Of a stretch of 28,668 bases of DNA, positions 1-5,144 are shown in pieces (position 1 is the stretch's first letter; every line of letters starts with the position of its first letter). Below the pieces are notes generated by a model that was not told the origin of the DNA, ran no database searches, and was given only the letters and a program-made list of their open reading frames with translations. The position numbers were made by a program, and so were the translations under genes. The stretch is from Ignavibacteriales bacterium (GTDB lineage: Bacteria > Bacteroidota > Ignavibacteria > UBA10030 > UBA6906). The stretch spans positions 1 to 28,668 of the forward strand of contig JBBIRR010000047.1 of assembly GCA_037441705.1 (NCBI GenBank), in the 5' to 3' direction.

Positions 1-595
1 TCAAGAGTCTTGTGATGACTTCAAACGCTCGGTAATAGGTCCCAGTTTGCGTCGGTGTGTACGTGAAAGTGTAAGTGCGTGTGCTGTTACTTCCGATCGA
101 TAGCAGGCTTGAAGTCTGATCTGAATCATACGGAGGTGATTGGTTTCTATCGACGAGCAAACGCACTCGGGCATTCAGTGTCTGTGAGACTCTGTTTCTC
201 ACGACGATTTGAACTGTCACTTGCGTGCCCGGCTCAATTGTGCCGGAGGGGGAAATGTTGACACTCTCGACGTAAGGATAAATGCGGTTGATCTCGAGGT
301 TGGTGGTTTGCCCCGAATTGACATTTACAGGCCCGCCGTCTCCCCAATACTCTTCACCGAAAAATGTACCGGTGTAGTATGCTTCGCAAGTGTATGAGCC
401 AGTTGGGATATTGTTGAAGCAGTTCGGTGTGTATACAGACACGTTGCCAGGATAGCGAACCACACGTGCACCAGATATTGTTGAACCGCCAACATTGCGA
501 ACCGTAACACAGAGATTACCTGTTTGTCCTTCAGTTGGTGTCACCCCTGCCAAAGTTATGAATCCGAGCATTAAGAGGAGAAGCAATCTTGGCAT
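1..595 (-). CDS. Secreted beta-sandwich (Ig/CARDB-like) protein, 3'-truncated by window edge; gene of cassette 2
   Basis: Not in the ORF track; manual translation from ATG at 595 is open to the edge (198 codons): MPRLLLLLMLGFITLAGVTPTEG-QTGNLCVTVRNVGGSTISGARVV...SPSGTIEPGTQVTVQIVVRN...TRTYTFTYTPTQTGTY. Signal peptide, GAAAGGAG SD upstream, alternating beta-strand pattern. Confidence 0.85.
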   Translation of the reverse strand, partial: MPRLLLLLMLGFITLAGVTPTEGQTGNLCVTVRNVGGSTISGARVVRYPGNVSVYTPNCFNNIPTGSYTCEAYYTGTFFGEEYWGDGGPVNVNSGQTTNLEINRIYPYVESVNISPSGTIEPGTQVTVQIVVRNRVSQTLNARVRLLVDRNQSPPYDSDQTSSLLSIGSNSTRTYTFTYTPTQTGTYYRAFEVITRLL

Positions 596-650: not shown

Positions 651-798
651 ATATAACGTTTACCGTAGCAACGCAGCGCCGCACTCCACGCTTTTTATAA
701 TTGAGTGCGGCGTTGAGCGAGTTCTATATGTCGTGCTGCGCGTTGGCATGTGCGTTGACTTACCAAATGAACGAGCGTCGTTGCTACGGTTGTTGTGC
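651..798 (-). mobile_element. attC-like recombination site (non-canonical)
   Basis: On the minus strand GCACAAC-AACCG-TAGCAACG ... CGTTGCTA-CGGTAAAC-GTTATAT. AAC/GTT ends, perfect 12-bp stem (662-673 with 779-790), internal hairpin 677-686/703-712. Lies between two co-oriented ORFs next to an integrase. Confidence 0.8.
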
Positions 799-1421
799 GC
801 AGTGCGAGCACCGTTTCGTAGCTATTACTCATATCAGTTATTGCTGACTGTAAGGCTCGCAACCACATTGAGGGTTACCACCTTGGCAGAAGCATTTAGG
901 CTTTGTACCCGAAGGACAATTGATTGAACAGCTGCCAAACAGACAACTCACTTGACAGCTTCCACCGCCCGAACCACCACCTCCGATTGGAGCCGTTGGG
1001 CTTGAATCGAGAGATAGGGTTTGGAAGAACTGTTGCATATCCGTGGTCTCCTGTGCCCTTAATGCCGTGAGTGCGCTGTTCAGCCGATCGATTTCCTTCG
1101 TGTATGTAGGGTAATCGTTCTTCTTGAGCGCTGCGAATACAGCTTTGTAGGCACTCTGGAGATTGGTGTTTTGCTTTAGCGATGGATGTGCACTCAACCA
1201 TGCCATAAACGCATTGAAGTTTTGTTCCTGTTGAGCTGACACATTTAACGCCACTGCTACGGAGTCGGCACCCTTCGGGGGTGGTGGAGATGCATAAACC
1301 GAGATCTGGAACAAGACTGTAACCAGACCTAGGATCCACAAAACGAGGCGTGTCTTCATAAGTACCTCCTTCTGTATAATTGGTTGATGGTTTAGTTGAT
1401 TGGTGCGAGCATTGCGCACAA
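657..1421 (-). mobile_element. Complete gene cassette 1 (765 bp)
   Basis: Bounded by G^TT at 1422/1421 and 657/656. The start GTTGTGCGCAATGCTCGCACC (1422-1402) is an 18/21 inverted match to the R''-side sequence 792-812. Contains a single ORF. Confidence 0.75.
838..1359 (-). CDS. Secreted protein with helical domain, Gly/Ser linker and C-terminal 8-Cys domain (173 aa)
   Basis: Start moved from 1509 to ATG 1359: AGGAGGT SD directly upstream, signal peptide MKTRLVLWILGLVTVLFQISVYA. Ends GGGGSGGGS-CQVSCLFGSCSINCPSGTKPKCFCQGGNPQCGCEPYSQQ. Confidence 0.85.
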   Translation of the reverse strand: MKTRLVLWILGLVTVLFQISVYASPPPPKGADSVAVALNVSAQQEQNFNAFMAWLSAHPSLKQNTNLQSAYKAVFAALKKNDYPTYTKEIDRLNSALTALRAQETTDMQQFFQTLSLDSSPTAPIGGGGSGGGSCQVSCLFGSCSINCPSGTKPKCFCQGGNPQCGCEPYSQQ

Positions 1422-1483
1422 CATCTCTAACATCGTATTGCGTTTTTGTTTTGCTGTGTTCGTAGATCCGCATTTCGTTTTTG
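1416..1483 (-). mobile_element. attI-like site
   Basis: Core GTTGTGC (1422-1416) with no attC-type hairpin upstream, tandem GATGTT (GATGTTAGAGATGTTG), and 13/15 direct repeats at 1434-1448 and 1469-1483, all within 100 bp of the integrase stop. Confidence 0.6.
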
Positions 1484-1520
1484 CTCCGAGCTCTCGATAA
1501 TAGACGCATTAAGGGTGCGT

Positions 1521-2396
1521 CTATGACCCGTTTTTCTGAACGATTTGTTCAATCGGACTGCGGATGTTCGCCATAACACGCTTGCTCACGTGTGTATAGA
1601 CCTCGGTTGTCCGCAGACTGCTGTGCCCAAGCAGCTCCTGTATGTAACGAATATCGGTTCCCTGTTCGAGCAAGTGTGTTGCAAACGCATGACGCAAGGA
1701 ATGTATAGACACTTGTTTTGTGATTCCTGCTTTCACAACCGCCTGCTCAAACACCTTCTCTGCACTCCGCACAGAGTATGCCCTCCCTTCCTTCTGTCCC
1801 TCGAACAACCATTCCTTGGGTTTGTATGCTCTCCAATACTCCCTCAACATTTCAATGATTACGTCCGACAGCAACGTGTACCGATCCTTTTTCCCCTTGC
1901 CGGAGCGAATGTGTATCATTTTCCTCTGGCTATCAATATCTGCCAGTTTCAAATGCACAACCTCACCTACGCGTAACCCGGCGGAATAGACCAGCATCAG
2001 CATCGTCCTGTGTTTCAAGTTGCCCAAAGCATCAAACAACCTCTTGACTTCCTCCGAAGAGAGGATAACAGGTAGTGACTTTTCTTTCTTCGGCCGGGGA
2101 ATACTGCCGATGGCAAAGGGCAGCTTGTATAAGTCTACGTACAACAAACGCATCGCGTTGATCATCTGATTCACACTGGACGCCTTCCAATGTTCCTTCT
2201 CCAGAAGATGGAGAAGAAAGGAACGCAAGTCCTCACTCGACAATTCACGAGGATGTTTGGGCCAGTAGTGCCGGACCAATGTGCGAATGCAGCTTTGATA
2301 GGCCTTGACCGTCTTGTGTGAGTACCCCTTCAACCGCATTTCGCGGCGCAGGGTTTCGAAGAGTCCAGGCGTGGGCGGCTGGTGCGGGGTGTTCAT
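1521..2396 (-). CDS. Tyrosine recombinase, integron-integrase-like (N-terminal SAM-like domain), lacking the IntI-specific insertion
   Basis: Catalytic motifs GLRV, GKGKKDR, HSLRH, LLGH, TEVYTHV all intact. N-terminus 'MRLKGYSHKTVKAY' and 'RPKKEKSLPVILS' resemble IntI. 291 aa. Confidence 0.93.
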   Translation of the reverse strand: MNTPHQPPTPGLFETLRREMRLKGYSHKTVKAYQSCIRTLVRHYWPKHPRELSSEDLRSFLLHLLEKEHWKASSVNQMINAMRLLYVDLYKLPFAIGSIPRPKKEKSLPVILSSEEVKRLFDALGNLKHRTMLMLVYSAGLRVGEVVHLKLADIDSQRKMIHIRSGKGKKDRYTLLSDVIIEMLREYWRAYKPKEWLFEGQKEGRAYSVRSAEKVFEQAVVKAGITKQVSIHSLRHAFATHLLEQGTDIRYIQELLGHSSLRTTEVYTHVSKRVMANIRSPIEQIVQKNGS

Positions 2397-2781: not shown

Positions 2782-4020
2782 TCAGGGATTCCGGAATCCC
2801 CCCAACCGATGCTTCACATACGCAAACGCTCCGAAGGCTCGCACGGCTTCGGCCTGGGCATGCACGGTGCCGATATCGCCGACCTTGTAGCCATCCTCGC
2901 CGCCGTGCGGGTTCCAGCCGTTGCGGATACCGTGATCGCTTTCGCGATGCAGTGTCACCGTCGCTTTGCCGTGGGCGTTCGTCCAGACGTGGTCCAGCAT
3001 TCTCTCGATCTTCGCCGGCAAATCGGATAACTCGTCGGGGGCGATCAGGTAGGCATCGATCAGAAAATTGACGAACGCACCGTTGCCGTCCATGTGAATC
3101 TGATAGAAATCCACCGGATCCACCCATCCCGTTGCCGGATCCATAATCCGTCTCGCGGTTGCAACCACGATCTTTTTGTATTTCTCATCCTTCGTTACAT
3201 TATACAGCGCCGCGCCGATGGAACAATAGCCGGTCCCGTTCCAGGGCAGTTCTTTTCCGAAGGCCGCCCGCCCGTGGCGTCCCTCCCATCGTCCGTTGCC
3301 CTTGTACAGCGCCCGCTCCACGCCGGGAAACTGCGCGTCACCGTTCCAGACGAGCAAGGCGTCGTCGAGGTACTGCCGCTCGCCCGTGGCTTCGAACAGC
3401 ATGCATGCAACGGTGGCCATCTGGTTCATGTTCGTGTTGGTAAAGATGGGCTCGTTCACGCGCGCCTTCGGCGGCCAGTTGTACCACGTCCAGTACCCTT
3501 CGTGATTGGAGAGCCTGCCTTCGTTGCGCGCTTGCATGTAGCGACGGACAGCATCTTGCACGAGCGCGGTGTTCCAACGGCCGGAAACATCCCACCACTT
3601 CAATTCCGCAATGCACGCCCATGCGCGGTCATCAACCCAATAGCCGTTATCCAACCGCAGCAAACTCCGCTCGATGGTGTGGAAGCGCAGCAACATGGAA
3701 TCGTGCGTCACGGCAAACATGAACGCGTTGCCGATTGCCCCGTAGGCTCCTTCCCAGCCGGGAGTGTACACGCGCTGAAATTGCTGGTTGATGGCGTATG
3801 CACGCTGCATCCATAGTTCTTGCGGCCGGTAGGTCGGCGTCGTGGCGGGAGTTTCAGCCTCTGCCGTCTTGCGCTCACCCGCTGGGTTGCGCGTCAGCAG
3901 GAACACTGCTGCAGCGCTCGCCGCCACCAACAGAGCTGCGGCAAGGCGCCCGCGCGCCGATAGCGGTGTTCTGTGGCTTTCCGCCGAAGAGTGTTCCTTT
4001 TTTTTCTGGGACTTGCGCAT
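2782..4020 (-). CDS. Glycoside hydrolase family 76-like protein, membrane-anchored
   Basis: YWVDDRAW matches the GH76 adjacent-Asp catalytic motif; (alpha/alpha)6-type repeats; N-terminal basic stretch plus TM helix. Start taken at MRKSQ (4020) rather than 4104. Confidence 0.65.
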   Translation of the reverse strand: MRKSQKKKEHSSAESHRTPLSARGRLAAALLVAASAAAVFLLTRNPAGERKTAEAETPATTPTYRPQELWMQRAYAINQQFQRVYTPGWEGAYGAIGNAFMFAVTHDSMLLRFHTIERSLLRLDNGYWVDDRAWACIAELKWWDVSGRWNTALVQDAVRRYMQARNEGRLSNHEGYWTWYNWPPKARVNEPIFTNTNMNQMATVACMLFEATGERQYLDDALLVWNGDAQFPGVERALYKGNGRWEGRHGRAAFGKELPWNGTGYCSIGAALYNVTKDEKYKKIVVATARRIMDPATGWVDPVDFYQIHMDGNGAFVNFLIDAYLIAPDELSDLPAKIERMLDHVWTNAHGKATVTLHRESDHGIRNGWNPHGGEDGYKVGDIGTVHAQAEAVRAFGAFAYVKHRLGGFRNP

Positions 4021-4172
4021 CCTACACGTGAGGAAAGGGCAAATGAACAGCCGTAAGCTAAGAATGCATTCTCCGAAACACAAGTCAGATACCGCCACGC
4101 ACATTCACGGTCTGTACTTTTTCAGAGTTTTCTCGTATCATTCTCGGCAGCGTTCACAATAATGAGGTTTGA

Positions 4173-4985
4173 ATGCGTGCTCTCGTTCTCTGCATCCTCG
4201 TCATGCATGCTGCGTATGCCGAAGGACCCGCCCCTGCCGAGCAGCCCTCGCATGGCTCAAGTATCGAGCATGATCTTTCCTTATTCTTCCGACTCACCAG
4301 CCGCGGGCTTACGGCTCCGCTGCACTGGGAACAGGATGACTGGAGGAACGCCGCCGGAACAGTTTTCTTCACCGGCCTCTCCGGCTTGCTCGATGAAGAA
4401 GCCTACACAACCGCGCTGAGGAATCGCTCCGCCACTAACGACAAGCTCGAGCGTGTCTTTGAAGCATACAGCAACGGCCTCACGGGCATTATGTTTTCCG
4501 GCGTGTTCTACACCTCGGGACTCCTGTTCGACAGCGAGTGGCTCCGCGGAACAGGCCTGGTCATCGCAAGCGCACTCACCATCTCTGCCATTACCCAAAC
4601 GACGTTCAAGTACATTGCCGGGCGCGCGCGACCGTACACCGGATTTAGCAACTCTAAGTTCCGTCCGTTTTCGTTCAACTCCGATTTTGTCGCCTTCCCT
4701 TCCGGGCACACCATCGTTGCGTTCACCGTTTCCACCGTGCTGTCCAAACGGATCGACAACATCTACGCCTCCATTGCGCTGTACTCGGCCGCGGCGCTCG
4801 GAGGATTCTCGCGCATCTACTCGGGCAATCACTGGTTGTCGGATGTGGTGTTCGGAGGCGTGCTCGCGGTTTATGTTTCCTCATGGGCGGTGAGGCAGTA
4901 TGAAGGCGAACAGCACAGCGACGACAACTCCGGCCTGAAGATTTTCCCTCATGCCAATGGACTGCGGATAGTATGGAAGTTTTGA
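4173..4985 (+). CDS. PAP2 family phosphatase
   Basis: Motifs KYIAGRARP, FPSGH, SRIYSGNHWLSDV. Confidence 0.92.
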   Translation: MRALVLCILVMHAAYAEGPAPAEQPSHGSSIEHDLSLFFRLTSRGLTAPLHWEQDDWRNAAGTVFFTGLSGLLDEEAYTTALRNRSATNDKLERVFEAYSNGLTGIMFSGVFYTSGLLFDSEWLRGTGLVIASALTISAITQTTFKYIAGRARPYTGFSNSKFRPFSFNSDFVAFPSGHTIVAFTVSTVLSKRIDNIYASIALYSAAALGGFSRIYSGNHWLSDVVFGGVLAVYVSSWAVRQYEGEQHSDDNSGLKIFPHANGLRIVWKF

Positions 4986-5144
4986 TGTGAGATCCCACGC
5001 TCGCCGATCATCTTCCGTTGTAAGCACGAAGCCACCGACCGCGGTGAACGCTGTATCGAATTCGATGCGCGCGTTCCAACTTCCGAGTGAATGTCGTATA
5101 TTGGAACCGAACGCAGATTATCCTCACATACAGAGAGCGGCCTC

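What the first reader, a model, noticed from the sequence alone, without database searches (positions are those of the whole stretch)
651..798. attC-like site with altered architecture: no extrahelical base in the L box, asymmetric 5/8-nt spacers
Seen: L''-like TAGCAACG and L'-like CGTTGCTA are perfectly complementary; the R-L spacers are 5 nt (AACCG) and 8 nt (CGGTAAAC), giving a 3-nt asymmetry next to R'; the 148-bp site has a branched interior (10-bp hairpin 677-686/703-712). Established: canonical attC sites have an extra base in L'', 5/5-6-nt spacers and are about 57-141 bp. Inference: loss of the extrahelical base matches the absence of the I2 helix in the neighbouring integrase, suggesting a different strand-selection rule.
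Basis: partly seen in the sequence, partly recalled or inferred. Interest (0 to 1): 0.8.

Follow-up and report, generated by a model that had tools for sequence, protein, structure and literature searches.

The report
Cassette site of an I2-less integron
This 148-base palindromic element is a gene-cassette recombination site of an integron-like gene-capture system whose integrase lacks the protein segment held to be essential for such systems, so it may show a second way in which bacteria capture genes.

Summary
Window 651-798 (read on the - strand) is the first cassette recombination site after a 291-aa tyrosine recombinase (1521-2396, -). That protein is the nearest relative of integron integrases but lacks their specific insert, the I2 region. 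A covariance model built only from sites of four other genomes finds the site at exactly these coordinates (88 bits).

I collected 127 distinct sister sites. They share one geometry: R'' (xxxTAAC), 1 nt, an 11-12 bp stem without bulges, a three-way junction, the stem's other arm, 4 nt, then R' (GTTAxxx). Stem pairs covary strongly.

Cassettes behave as mobile units. Identical cassettes have different neighbours, with identity breaking at ACG|TTA. Each cassette's first ~18 nt pair with the flank of its own R''.

Arrays start 23-216 nt after the integrase stop, behind a conserved attI-like block. All 44 model hits in 80 homologous loci lie downstream on the integrase strand. Ten genomes have the short integrase and arrays but no canonical IntI found.

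The link between integrase and site rests on adjacency only. Use of the folded bottom strand and a new strand-selection rule are inferred. Eight genomes have such sites with only a canonical IntI, so cross-use is not excluded. I found no paper describing this system.

The parts
1521..2396 (-). Short IntI-like tyrosine recombinase, 291 aa, without the integron-integrase insert (I2 region)
   Evidence: Pfam PF00589 6e-42 and PF13495. NCBIfam NF040815 scores 225.7 bits against a cutoff of 220. TIGR02249 integron integrase scores 223.3 against a cutoff of 265, in two stretches. Against VchIntIA (2a3v), query 15-186 aligns to 8-179 and query 213-284 to 248-319. Gaps of 31 and 10 aa versus the contig-C73 IntI and IntI1. 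Catalytic R142, K167, H232, R235, H258 and Y267 are kept. AF2 mean pLDDT 87.7; residues 192-208 form strands only, no helix. Best PDB fold match is 2a3v.
1501..1523 (.). Small hairpin (8-bp arms, 7-nt loop) overlapping the integrase stop codon
   Evidence: Read directly. Orthologous loci show similar short palindromes just after the stop. Function not tested.
1419..1466 (-). attI-like block ending at the inferred crossover (G1421 | T1420 on the - strand)
   Evidence: A conserved block (short palindrome, TTACA-like, 3-4 nt, then GTTA) precedes the first cassette in 28 of 34 loci of this integrase clade. It lies 23-216 nt after the stop, 98 nt in the window. Contigs of 4 of 4 runs laid diverge from or end on the window at 1403-1422.
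657..1420 (-). Cassette 1 as a unit: from TT of the attI junction to the G of R' of its own site
   Evidence: Boundaries inferred from the G|TT rule seen in repeated cassettes and from the end complementarity of this cassette.
1400..1420 (-). 5' end of cassette 1, complementary to 792-812 (R'' plus 14 nt of flank)
   Evidence: Inverted repeat I1, 779-812 versus 1402-1435. The same own-cassette complementarity holds in 105 cassettes, with a conserved mismatch at position 11.
838..1359 (-). Cassette 1 ORF: 173 aa, signal-peptide-like N-terminus, Cys-rich C-terminus, own GGAGG ribosome-binding site
   Evidence: No Pfam or NCBIfam family.
651..798 (-). attC-type site of cassette 1 (the finding)
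   Evidence: R2 88 bits. R1 103.3 bits, though this site was in R1's seed alignment.
792..798 (-). R'' box (GCACAAC)
   Evidence: Family R'' is [G/A][C/G][A/C]TAAC followed by A in 124 of 124 sites. In the window position 4 is C, matched by G in the cassette's own start.
779..790 (-). 5' arm of the outer (L-equivalent) stem
   Evidence: repeat I13. The pairs covary in the family.
703..715 (-). 5' arm of the inner hairpin (helix 3)
   Evidence: repeat I10. Helix 3 is 90.4% paired over 127 sites.
674..686 (-). 3' arm of the inner hairpin
   Evidence: repeat I10.
662..673 (-). 3' arm of the outer stem
   Evidence: repeat I13.
658..661 (-). 4-nt unpaired stretch (AAAC) beside R', opposite the single A at 791
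   Evidence: The two bases before GTT are A in 112 and C in 122 of 124 sites.
651..657 (-). R' box (GTTATAT). The G belongs to cassette 1 and TTATAT to cassette 2.
2..595 (-). Cassette 2 ORF (partial; runs off the contig start): secreted Ig-like/CARDB-like protein
   Evidence: The window is G000:C47:1-28668, so the array is cut by the contig end.

Best explanation
Window 651-798 is the recombination site (attC equivalent) of the first gene cassette of an integron-like platform.

Layout, all on the - strand: a short IntI-like tyrosine recombinase gene, an attI-like site about 100 nt after its stop, then promoterless cassettes. Each cassette is an ORF plus a structured site.

Most likely mechanism. 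The recombinase excises cassettes by site x site recombination and inserts circular cassettes at attI. The crossover lies at G|TT of R', which is AA|C on the bottom strand. The substrate is most likely the folded bottom strand. In the free cassette this strand forms a nearly continuous hairpin with these parts:
- an R arm of about 18-19 bp (R box plus about 12 bp of cassette-specific extension, with a conserved mismatch at position 11);
- a 1 x 4-nt internal loop next to the cleavage point;
- a bulge-free 11-12 bp L arm;
- a three-way junction.

A Xer-like enzyme without the I2 helix could read such a duplex-like hairpin as an ordinary core site, with two arms around an irregular centre. The asymmetric loop, rather than extrahelical bases docked on I2, would mark polarity and could block the second strand exchange.

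Shown: the anatomy, the covariation, cassette mobility with G|TT junctions, the conserved attI-like block, and the systematic adjacency to an I2-less integrase.

Inferred: that this integrase is the catalyst, that the substrate is single-stranded, which strand is used, and the role of the loop.
For: Family and structure.
- RNAalifold on a MAFFT alignment of 26 sites gives an 11-bp outer stem in which 10-17 of 26 sequences keep each of 10 pairs (1-3 for the two innermost) through changes on both sides, plus a covarying inner hairpin.
- On 127 distinct sites, 92.0% of cells pair, against 54.9% in shuffles and 35-43% when partners are slid. The covariation score is 0.865 against 0.218.
- Geometry: 108 of 124 sites have 3 more nt on the R' side ((1,4) in 66, (2,5) in 34, (5,8) in 5, (3,6) in 3). 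94 of 124 have a perfect 11-12 bp run. Bulges occur in 1-2 of 127.
- The independent model R2 finds the window site.

Mobility.
- Nine groups of near-identical full-length cassettes occur at several array positions.
- In the five groups printed, the left and right neighbours differ and identity breaks at ...ACG|TTA....
- In 105 cassettes, the first ~18 nt after G|TT are complementary to the flank of the cassette's own R'' (0.66-0.97 per position, except position 11). Unrelated pairs and the actual array neighbour give 0.24-0.5 at the non-conserved positions.
- 96 of 99 cassettes have their longest ORF on the integrase strand.

Link to the short integrase.
- All 44 R1 hits in 80 homologous loci are downstream of the integrase and on its strand.
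- My hairpin scanner gives 108 hits in 199 kb downstream against 20 in 388 kb upstream.
- The attI-like block is present in 28 of 34 loci. Two contigs end exactly at its GTTA.
- In a one-contig genome (G184), the short integrase at 4168-5007(-) precedes, across the record's origin, an array at 3564785-3602660(-). The canonical IntI lies 70 kb from that array.
- In a 151-genome sample of the class, R1 sites occur in 16 of 18 genomes with a close (E <= 1e-90) short integrase. They occur in 10 of 15 genomes with a short integrase but no canonical IntI found, and in 6 of 108 genomes with neither.
- R1 gives 0 hits in 245,669 nt around 13 canonical-IntI loci plus a class 1 integron.

Population data. 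Contigs of 4 of 4 runs that carry the integrase side diverge or end at 1403-1422.

Strand. The bottom strand folds better in 104 of 127 sites, mean -27.1 versus -25.1 kcal/mol. Position 11 of the R arm is C.A on top, hence G.T on the bottom strand, in 68 of 94 cassettes.

Protein. See the parts list. The tree places the short clades and canonical IntI together (SH-aLRT 99) apart from the genome's XerC/D-like genes. Canonical IntI, including IntI1, is monophyletic (100) and the short forms lie outside it.
Against: - No experiment. The integrase-site link rests on adjacency and co-occurrence among related genomes, which are not independent.
- 14 of 30 genomes with R1 sites have no short integrase at E <= 1e-70. 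Eight of these carry a canonical IntI. Canonical IntI might therefore use these sites, or the arrays may be orphaned.
- Of 8 such arrays inspected, only 1 had a remnant of the short integrase within about 8 kb upstream.
- Within the helices there is no strand bias of wobble pairs: 56 G.T on top against 70 A.C, and 55 against 53 without the first pair.
- The energy difference between strands is only about 2 kcal/mol.
- Position 11 is G.A in 21 of 94 cassettes, a mismatch on both strands.
- The tree is a quick search with SH-aLRT support only. The three clades form an unresolved trichotomy and the outgroup is three Xer-like sequences.
- Alignment A2 was fitted to the model, which favours the structure, although the MAFFT alignment A1 gave the same helices.
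- I could not score the site with IntegronFinder's attC model, so it may pass there as an ordinary attC.
- Cury et al. 2016 (PMC4889954, section 18 read) examined recombinases lacking the insert near attC sites and concluded that they are not IntI.
Confidence: 0.65

Rival explanations
1. The sites are ordinary attC sites served in trans by the canonical IntI of the same genome (contig C73, 55.6% identical to IntI1). The short recombinase is a bystander or a decayed relative.
For: G000 has a canonical IntI. 8 of 20 sampled genomes with a canonical IntI but no short integrase hold R1-type sites, against 6 of 108 with neither. IntIs are reported to accept diverse attC sites (PMC2095811, abstract seen in the listing).
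Against: - Ten sampled genomes (95-100% complete) have arrays and a short integrase but no canonical IntI found. So does G033.
- No R1 site lies next to a canonical IntI in the better-assembled genomes: G184 is 70 kb away, G137 is 585 kb away, G047 is about 400 kb away with a broken IntI, and G088 has an IntI but no sites.
- R1 gives 0 hits around 13 canonical-IntI loci.
- The conserved attI-like block with a cassette junction sits directly behind the short integrase.
- The short integrase is intact and conserved: 44 aligned homologues keep all catalytic residues.
- The sites lack the L-arm extrahelical bases that I2 docks (PMC7790495 passages).
Confidence: 0.13
2. The short integrase does recombine these sites, but as double-stranded DNA by the classical two-strand-exchange route. 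On this reading the hairpin potential serves another purpose, such as transcription termination between cassettes or cassette genesis.
For: The enzyme lacks I2, which the literature holds to be what allows single-strand recombination and blocks the second exchange (PMC7790495). The long, bulge-free arms look like duplex binding sites. There is no wobble strand bias in the helices.
Against: - The arm sequences are not conserved but covary. This fits recognition of a fold rather than of a double-stranded sequence.
- In double-stranded form, the two halves that pair are about 100 nt apart.
- Complementarity between a cassette's two ends has meaning only if they pair within one strand of the circular form.
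- The bottom strand is more stable in 104 of 127 sites.
- XerCD already acts on a folded single strand without I2 in CTX phage integration (as described in PMC7790495).
Confidence: 0.17
3. The palindromes are REP-like or terminator-like intergenic repeats with no role in recombination.
For: They lie between convergently read ORF ends and the next ORF and form stable hairpins.
Against: - Identical cassettes occur in different contexts with breaks exactly at G|TT.
- Each cassette's end is complementary to its own start.
- Hits are confined to the stretch downstream of one recombinase family.
- Contigs break at the attI junction.
Confidence: 0.03

Closest known systems
Classical integrons: IntI with the I2-containing insert, attI, and attC sites (class 1 IntI1; Vibrio VchIntIA with VCR sites, PDB 2a3v)
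   Same: - Tyrosine recombinase of the Xer-like group with an SP(L/I)(D/E) tail.
- Arrays of promoterless, co-oriented cassettes.
- Imperfect palindromic sites bounded by ...TAAC and GTTA... boxes, with the crossover at G|TT.
- Sequence-variable but structure-conserved sites with a branched interior, as in long chromosomal attC sites.
- The bottom strand folds better.
- Cassettes encode accessory or defence-like genes.
   Different: - The integrase lacks the 31+10 aa insert (I2).
- The sites have no extrahelical bases in the L arm.
- The unpaired spacer is 1 x 4 nt instead of 5-6 nt on both arms.
- The surplus bases lie beside R', on the cleaved arm, not on the L'' arm.
- The R arm of the free cassette extends to about 18-19 bp instead of 7, with a conserved mismatch at position 11 (canonical features from PMC5027507).
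Integrons with the integrase co-oriented with the cassettes (the 'inverted' group of Treponema and others) and archaeal integrons with attI just downstream of intI
   Same: attI and the array lie behind the 3' end of the integrase gene, on the same strand (PMC4889954 section 18; bioRxiv 10.1101/2022.02.06.479319 passages).
   Different: Those integrases are reported to carry the IntI-specific domain. This one does not.
CTX-phage type integration: XerCD acting on a folded single-stranded hairpin (IMEX)
   Same: A Xer-type enzyme without I2 recombines a hairpin that mimics a core site, with a single strand exchange. This is the scenario discussed in PMC7790495 (passages), and it is the closest precedent for how the present system may work.
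   Different: That is a phage genome integrating at the chromosomal dif site with host XerC and XerD. There is no dedicated integrase, no attI and no cassette array.
Xer recombinases at dif (XerC/D; archaeal XerA, PDB 5hxy and 4a8e)
   Same: Similar length and fold, with no insert. NCBIfam's XerA model is just passed at 225.7 against 220. XerA is the best sequence match in the PDB.
   Different: - The genome has separate XerC/D-like genes, which fall outside this clade in the tree.
- The gene is tied to cassette arrays, not to a single dif site.
- The best fold match is VchIntIA.

Membership tests
Integron (IntI + attI + attC cassettes, as defined by IntegronFinder and the integron literature) | Tyrosine recombinase catalytic domain (PF00589) with the catalytic residues | tested here: met
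   PF00589 6e-42. R, K, H, R, H and Y are invariant in the alignments.
Integron (IntI + attI + attC cassettes, as defined by IntegronFinder and the integron literature) | IntI-specific additional domain near patch III (I2 helix; profile intI_Cterm) | tested here: not met
   TIGR02249 scores 223.3 against a cutoff of 265, split in two stretches. About 42 residues of VchIntIA have no counterpart. Gaps of 31 and 10 aa versus two canonical IntIs. No helix at 192-208 in the model. The intI_Cterm profile itself was not available.
Integron (IntI + attI + attC cassettes, as defined by IntegronFinder and the integron literature) | Sites bounded by inverse core RYYYAAC and core GTTRRRY, with the crossover at G|TT | tested here: met
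   TAAC and GTTA are near invariant. Junctions of repeated cassettes fall at ACG|TTA. In the window the boxes are GCACAAC and GTTATAT.
Integron (IntI + attI + attC cassettes, as defined by IntegronFinder and the integron literature) | Extrahelical bases on the L'' arm (opposite AAC in the bottom strand) | tested here: not met
   1-2 of 127 sites have any bulge in the outer stem. A canonical control site shows two bulges on that arm. Two to three unpaired junction bases (GAC in 77 of 127) do lie on that arm at positions 20-22; their role is unknown.
Integron (IntI + attI + attC cassettes, as defined by IntegronFinder and the integron literature) | Unpaired central spacer of 5-6 nt on each arm | tested here: not met
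   1 nt on one arm and 4 nt on the other in at least 124 of 127 sites.
Integron (IntI + attI + attC cassettes, as defined by IntegronFinder and the integron literature) | Array of co-oriented, mostly single-ORF cassettes that move as units | tested here: met
   96 of 99 cassettes have their longest ORF on the array strand. Median spacing is 816 nt. Nine groups of repeated cassettes were found; in the five printed, the neighbours differ.
Integron (IntI + attI + attC cassettes, as defined by IntegronFinder and the integron literature) | attI next to the integrase gene as the insertion point | tested here: inconclusive
   A conserved block ending in GTTA is present in 28 of 34 loci, and contig breaks and divergence occur there. 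Insertion activity is not shown.
Integron (IntI + attI + attC cassettes, as defined by IntegronFinder and the integron literature) | Score above threshold with the published attC covariance model | not testable with these tools
   The model is not in Rfam (one search gave only two chance-level hits) and is not otherwise available here.
Xer/dif chromosome dimer resolution | Housekeeping recombinase acting at one dif site; not linked to cassette arrays | tested here: not met
   Separate XerC/D-like genes lie on contigs C16 and C4 and fall outside the clade. The gene is followed by arrays in homologous loci. dif itself was not searched.
NCBIfam NF040815 (recomb_XerA_Arch, 'site-specific tyrosine recombinase/integron integrase') | Score at or above the curated cutoff | tested here: met
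   225.7 bits against 220. The family name says nothing about cassette arrays, and the organism is bacterial judging by its relatives.

The most novel reading that the evidence does not exclude
Bacteria of the Ignavibacteriota/Chlorobiota/Bacteroidota group carry a separate lineage of integrons. Its integrase is a sister of IntI that never had, or does without, the I2 helix. It still captures and shuffles cassettes through folded single-stranded sites. These sites replace extrahelical-base docking by a duplex-like hairpin: a 19-bp R arm, a 12-bp L arm, and a 1 x 4 loop at the cleavage point. If so, single-strand cassette recombination is not bound to I2, and this lineage is the natural 'intermediate' that the integron field says is missing.
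Probability: 0.45. Interest if true: 0.9.

Novelty: new variant of a known kind. Interest (0 to 1): 0.82.

Why it matters
The I2 insert is used to define integron integrases. IntegronFinder requires it (PMC4889954, PMC9024848). It is presented as the innovation that made single-strand cassette recombination possible, and 'the lack of intermediates' is named as an obstacle to studying that step (PMC7790495, passages read).

A conserved, widespread clade of I2-less relatives sits directly in front of large cassette arrays whose site architecture has changed accordingly. That would have three consequences:
1. It would give the field a natural comparison for what I2 and the extrahelical bases really do.
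2. It would mean that many 'CALIN' arrays in this group of phyla are complete platforms missed by current tools.
3. It would enlarge the known reach of integron-type gene capture.

Homologous loci with arrays occur in cultured isolates, so the question is directly testable.

Tried and rejected
- Sequence similarity found no sister site in the genome. blastn-short gave only 13-21 nt chance matches. Structure-based search was needed.
- My first two scanners returned nothing because they were too strict. One search required 5 of 7 R-box matches. One search used a gapped score with a threshold of 11. Both were relaxed.
- Rfam has no attC family. Only two chance-level hits appeared, E 2.3 and 4.9.
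- I looked for arrays beside canonical IntI genes to compare geometries. My scanner found no clear array in 7 + 6 loci, and many such genes lie at contig ends. The attC type used by the canonical IntIs of this class therefore stays unknown.
- G006 has R1 sites, a canonical IntI and no short integrase. Its array contig ends 3 kb beyond the last site, so it decides nothing.
- The wobble-pair strand test gave no bias.
- An invertible-segment reading was considered at first, because inverted repeats 779-812/1402-1435 flank a gene next to a recombinase. It was dropped once the same complementarity proved to be a general property of cassette ends.
- Read laying showed no joints. Contigs cannot show rare excision products, and parts of the stretch without cover in X2, X3 and X5 say nothing.
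- Supplementary files of papers were not consulted. Those of PMC4889954 may list recombinases of this clade.
- No paper on I2-less integrases with cassette arrays was found in searches. The library lacks most subscription journals.
Full report
**Context.** The window is the first 28,668 bases of contig C47 of a 92-contig genome. Everything left of position 1 is therefore lost. On the - strand the left end of the window reads, in order:
- a 291-aa tyrosine recombinase gene (1521-2396);
- a 100-nt spacer;
- a 173-aa ORF with its own ribosome-binding site (838-1359);
- the finding (651-798);
- a second ORF (2-595) that runs off the contig.

**The observation.** On the - strand the site has the following parts:
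- an R''-like GCACAAC (798-792);
- one A (791);
- a 12-nt arm (790-779);
- a 105-nt interior with a 13-bp hairpin (715-703 with 686-674);
- the complementary 12-nt arm (673-662);
- AAAC (661-658);
- an R'-like GTTATAT (657-651).

The unpaired part is 1 nt against 4 nt, and the 3-nt surplus next to R' is real. Both strands fold into a branched structure: + strand -35.2 kcal/mol, z -2.98; - strand -30.5, z -1.62. A 12-bp inverted repeat alone is not beyond chance in a window of this size (47 of 200 resamples). The case rests on the family.

**Sister sites.** Sequence search found none. A simple scanner looked for AAC...GTT plus a stem at set distances. It found four more sites with the same geometry at the end of contig C49, and that contig stops inside a fifth. 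The scanner also found whole arrays downstream of orthologues of the recombinase in related genomes.

I aligned 26 sites with MAFFT. RNAalifold gave an 11-bp outer stem, a two-pair helix closing a variable arm, and an inner hairpin. All 27 pairs showed changes on both sides.

The covariance model R1 found 7 sites in this genome and 131 sites (127 distinct) in 24 held sources. On these 127:
- 92.0% of cells pair, against 54.9% in shuffles and 35-43% with slid partners (the alignment is fitted to the model);
- 1-2 of 127 have any bulge in the outer stem;
- 126 of 127 have one base, always A, after R'';
- 124 of 127 have four bases before R', the last two nearly always AC.

A second model, R2, was built from 21 sites of four other genomes only. 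It recovers 651-798(-) end to end at 88 bits, recovers the four C49 sites, and finds nothing else in the window.

**The sites are cassette boundaries and cassettes move.** Between successive sites lie mostly single ORFs on the array strand (96 of 99; median spacing 816 nt). Nine groups of near-identical full-length cassettes occur at several positions, some in two different arrays of one genome. In the five groups I printed, the left and right neighbours differ and identity stops within ACG|TTA. This places the crossover at R', as in integrons, and fixes the orientation: the top strand is the strand of the ORFs and of the integrase.

The first ~18 nt of each cassette are complementary to the flank of its own R'' (0.66-0.97 per position). 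They are not complementary to the neighbour actually adjoining in the array, nor to unrelated cassettes. Position 11 is a conserved mismatch: the cassette start has A in 92 of 94, opposite C in 68 and G in 21. The window's first cassette shows exactly this pattern (1400-1420 against 792-812). In the circular cassette the R arm would thus be about 18-19 bp long, not 7.

**The integrase.**
- It has PF00589 and an N-terminal SAM-like domain.
- It just passes NCBIfam's XerA model and fails the integron-integrase model. It matches the latter in two pieces.
- Against VchIntIA, about 42 residues (180-247) have no counterpart.
- Against the canonical IntI of contig C73 and IntI1 it has gaps of 31 and 10 aa, where those proteins carry the ALERKYP-type segment. 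The catalytic residues and the C-terminal SP(L/I)(D/E) motif are kept.
- An AlphaFold2 model (pLDDT 87.7) has only strands at 192-208. Its best fold match in the PDB is VchIntIA (E 5e-18), followed by XerA.
- In a quick maximum-likelihood tree, the short integrases of Ignavibacteriota/Chlorobiota, those of Bacteroidota, and canonical IntIs (monophyletic at 100, including IntI1) form one clade. That clade has support 99 against the genome's XerC/D-like genes. The three-way branching inside it is unresolved.

The same genome also encodes a canonical IntI (contig C73, 361 aa, 55.6% identical to IntI1).

**Link between the short integrase and the arrays.**
- Of 80 loci around homologues from public genomes, all 44 R1 hits lie downstream of the integrase, on its strand.
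- Hairpin hits are about ten times denser downstream than upstream.
- Directly after the stop codon, 23-216 nt away, 28 of 34 loci of the clade carry a conserved block ending in GTTA, followed by a cassette-type start. Two contigs end exactly there, and many others end within 50-300 nt.
- In the window this junction is at G1421|T1420. Contigs from 4 of 4 metagenome runs that carry the integrase side (roughly 91-100% identical) leave the window's sequence at 1403-1422. Two of those runs hold a related site in other flanks (contigs only, and one run may be the source of the assembly).
- In a one-contig genome, the short integrase precedes a 38-kb array across the record's origin, while the canonical IntI is 70 kb from that array.

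In one 151-genome sample of the class, R1 sites occur in:

| Genome group | With R1 sites |
|---|---|
| Close short integrase (E <= 1e-90) | 16 of 18 (the two exceptions are 81% and 85% complete) |
| Short integrase, no canonical IntI found | 10 of 15 |
| Canonical IntI only | 8 of 20 |
| Neither | 6 of 108 |

Related genomes are not independent, so these are descriptive counts.

**Evidence against.**
- Fourteen of the 30 genomes with sites lack a detectable short integrase. Of eight such arrays, only one had a remnant of it upstream.
- Use of these sites by canonical IntI is therefore not excluded.
- R1 finds nothing around 13 canonical-IntI loci and a class 1 integron.
- No well-assembled genome shows a canonical IntI next to such an array.

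**Comparison with canonical attC.** According to Nivina et al. 2016 (PMC5027507, passages read):
- canonical sites have 5-6 unpaired spacer bases on each arm;
- they have two or three extrahelical bases near L'', on the arm opposite the AAC of the bottom strand;
- site length is 57-141 bp.

The site of an aadA cassette on an E. coli plasmid showed just that: 5/6-nt spacers, an extra base in L'', and two bulges on the 3' arm of the folded bottom strand.

In the present family the L arm has no bulge. The spacer is 1 x 4. The surplus lies on the arm that carries AAC in the bottom strand, directly 3' of the inferred cleavage point. Two to three unpaired junction bases (GAC in 77 of 127) do sit on the L'' side at positions 20-22, a distance similar to the distal canonical extrahelical bases. 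Whether they are read is unknown.

**Mechanism proposed.** The arm sequences vary but covary, and a cassette's two ends pair with each other. Recognition of a fold is therefore more plausible than recognition of a duplex sequence. The bottom strand is the more stable in 104 of 127 sites, by about 2 kcal/mol. Position 11 can form G.T only on that strand in 72% of cassettes. Wobble pairs inside the helices show no strand bias.

I therefore propose that the short integrase performs a single strand exchange on the folded bottom strand, with the asymmetric loop as the mark of polarity. This is by analogy with integrons and with XerCD on the CTX phage hairpin (PMC7790495). I hold this with moderate confidence.

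**Literature.**
- PMC7790495 states that I2 acquisition made the step to single-strand recombination, that I2 deletion inactivates IntI1, and that natural intermediates are lacking (passages read).
- PMC4889954 found 50 recombinases without the insert near attC sites and concluded that they are not IntI. Four intermediate ones had fewer than three sites (section 18 read).
- PMC8138268 notes that the insert 'is not fully conserved' in its integron-like subgroup (passage read).
- PMC9024848 reports complete integrons in Chlorobi and Ignavibacteriae (passages read).
- Six searches found no description of cassette arrays run by an I2-less integrase.

**Verdict.** It is a new variant of the integron, with the integrase-site link and the strand rule still to be tested at the bench.

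Noticed in passing
G000 contig C73:47-1132 (-), locus L029: A canonical integron integrase (361 aa, with the IntI insert; 55.6% identical to IntI1) sits at a contig start with its 3' end facing the break. Just after its stop lies a small hairpin of the form GTTAGAT / 7-nt loop / ATATAAC. A similar hairpin is conserved behind its closest orthologues. In a closed genome (G088) the 85%-identical orthologue has no detectable array.
   Followed up: partly
G000 contig C49:20759-26767 (locus L028:8763-14768): The rest of the array: four complete sites and one cut by the contig end. The cassettes encode a SEFIR/TIR-domain protein, a methyltransferase, DUF3800, DUF5655 and an HSDR_N-domain protein. This looks like a defence-type gene set.
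   Followed up: partly
Loci L102 (7658-11559), L093 (11405-12311), L112 (7833-9369): More distant short integrases (42-48% identity) of Bacteroidota also have downstream arrays. Two of these are cultured isolates, Arundinibacter roseus and Aquiflexum lacus. Their sites have 14-16 bp stems and mostly 3 versus 5-6 unpaired nt, again with the surplus on the R' side. R1 does not detect them.
   Followed up: partly
Loci L003, L058 and many of L049-L128: Metagenome-assembled contigs very often end 50-300 nt after the stop of this integrase, twice exactly at the GTTA of the attI-like block. This suggests that the first cassette differs among cells of the sampled populations.
   Followed up: partly
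G040:C2:500130-500732 (locus L021, about 2131-2733): A second, partial copy of the short integrase (48% identity, residues 18-220) lies directly behind the full-length one, ahead of the array.
   Followed up: no
G135:C2:1447497-1447754 (locus L168:1498-1755, -): An 86-aa remnant of the short integrase (E 6.5e-26) lies just upstream of an array in a genome that otherwise scored as lacking the gene. Some 'orphan' arrays may thus have lost their integrase recently.
   Followed up: no
window 838-1359 (-) and 2-595 (-): The two cassette proteins in the window both look secreted. One has a Gly-rich linker and a Cys-rich tail and matches no family. The other has weak Ig-like/CARDB matches.
   Followed up: no
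window 2782-4104 (-): A 440-aa ORF just upstream of the integrase gene has no Pfam or NCBIfam family.
   Followed up: no
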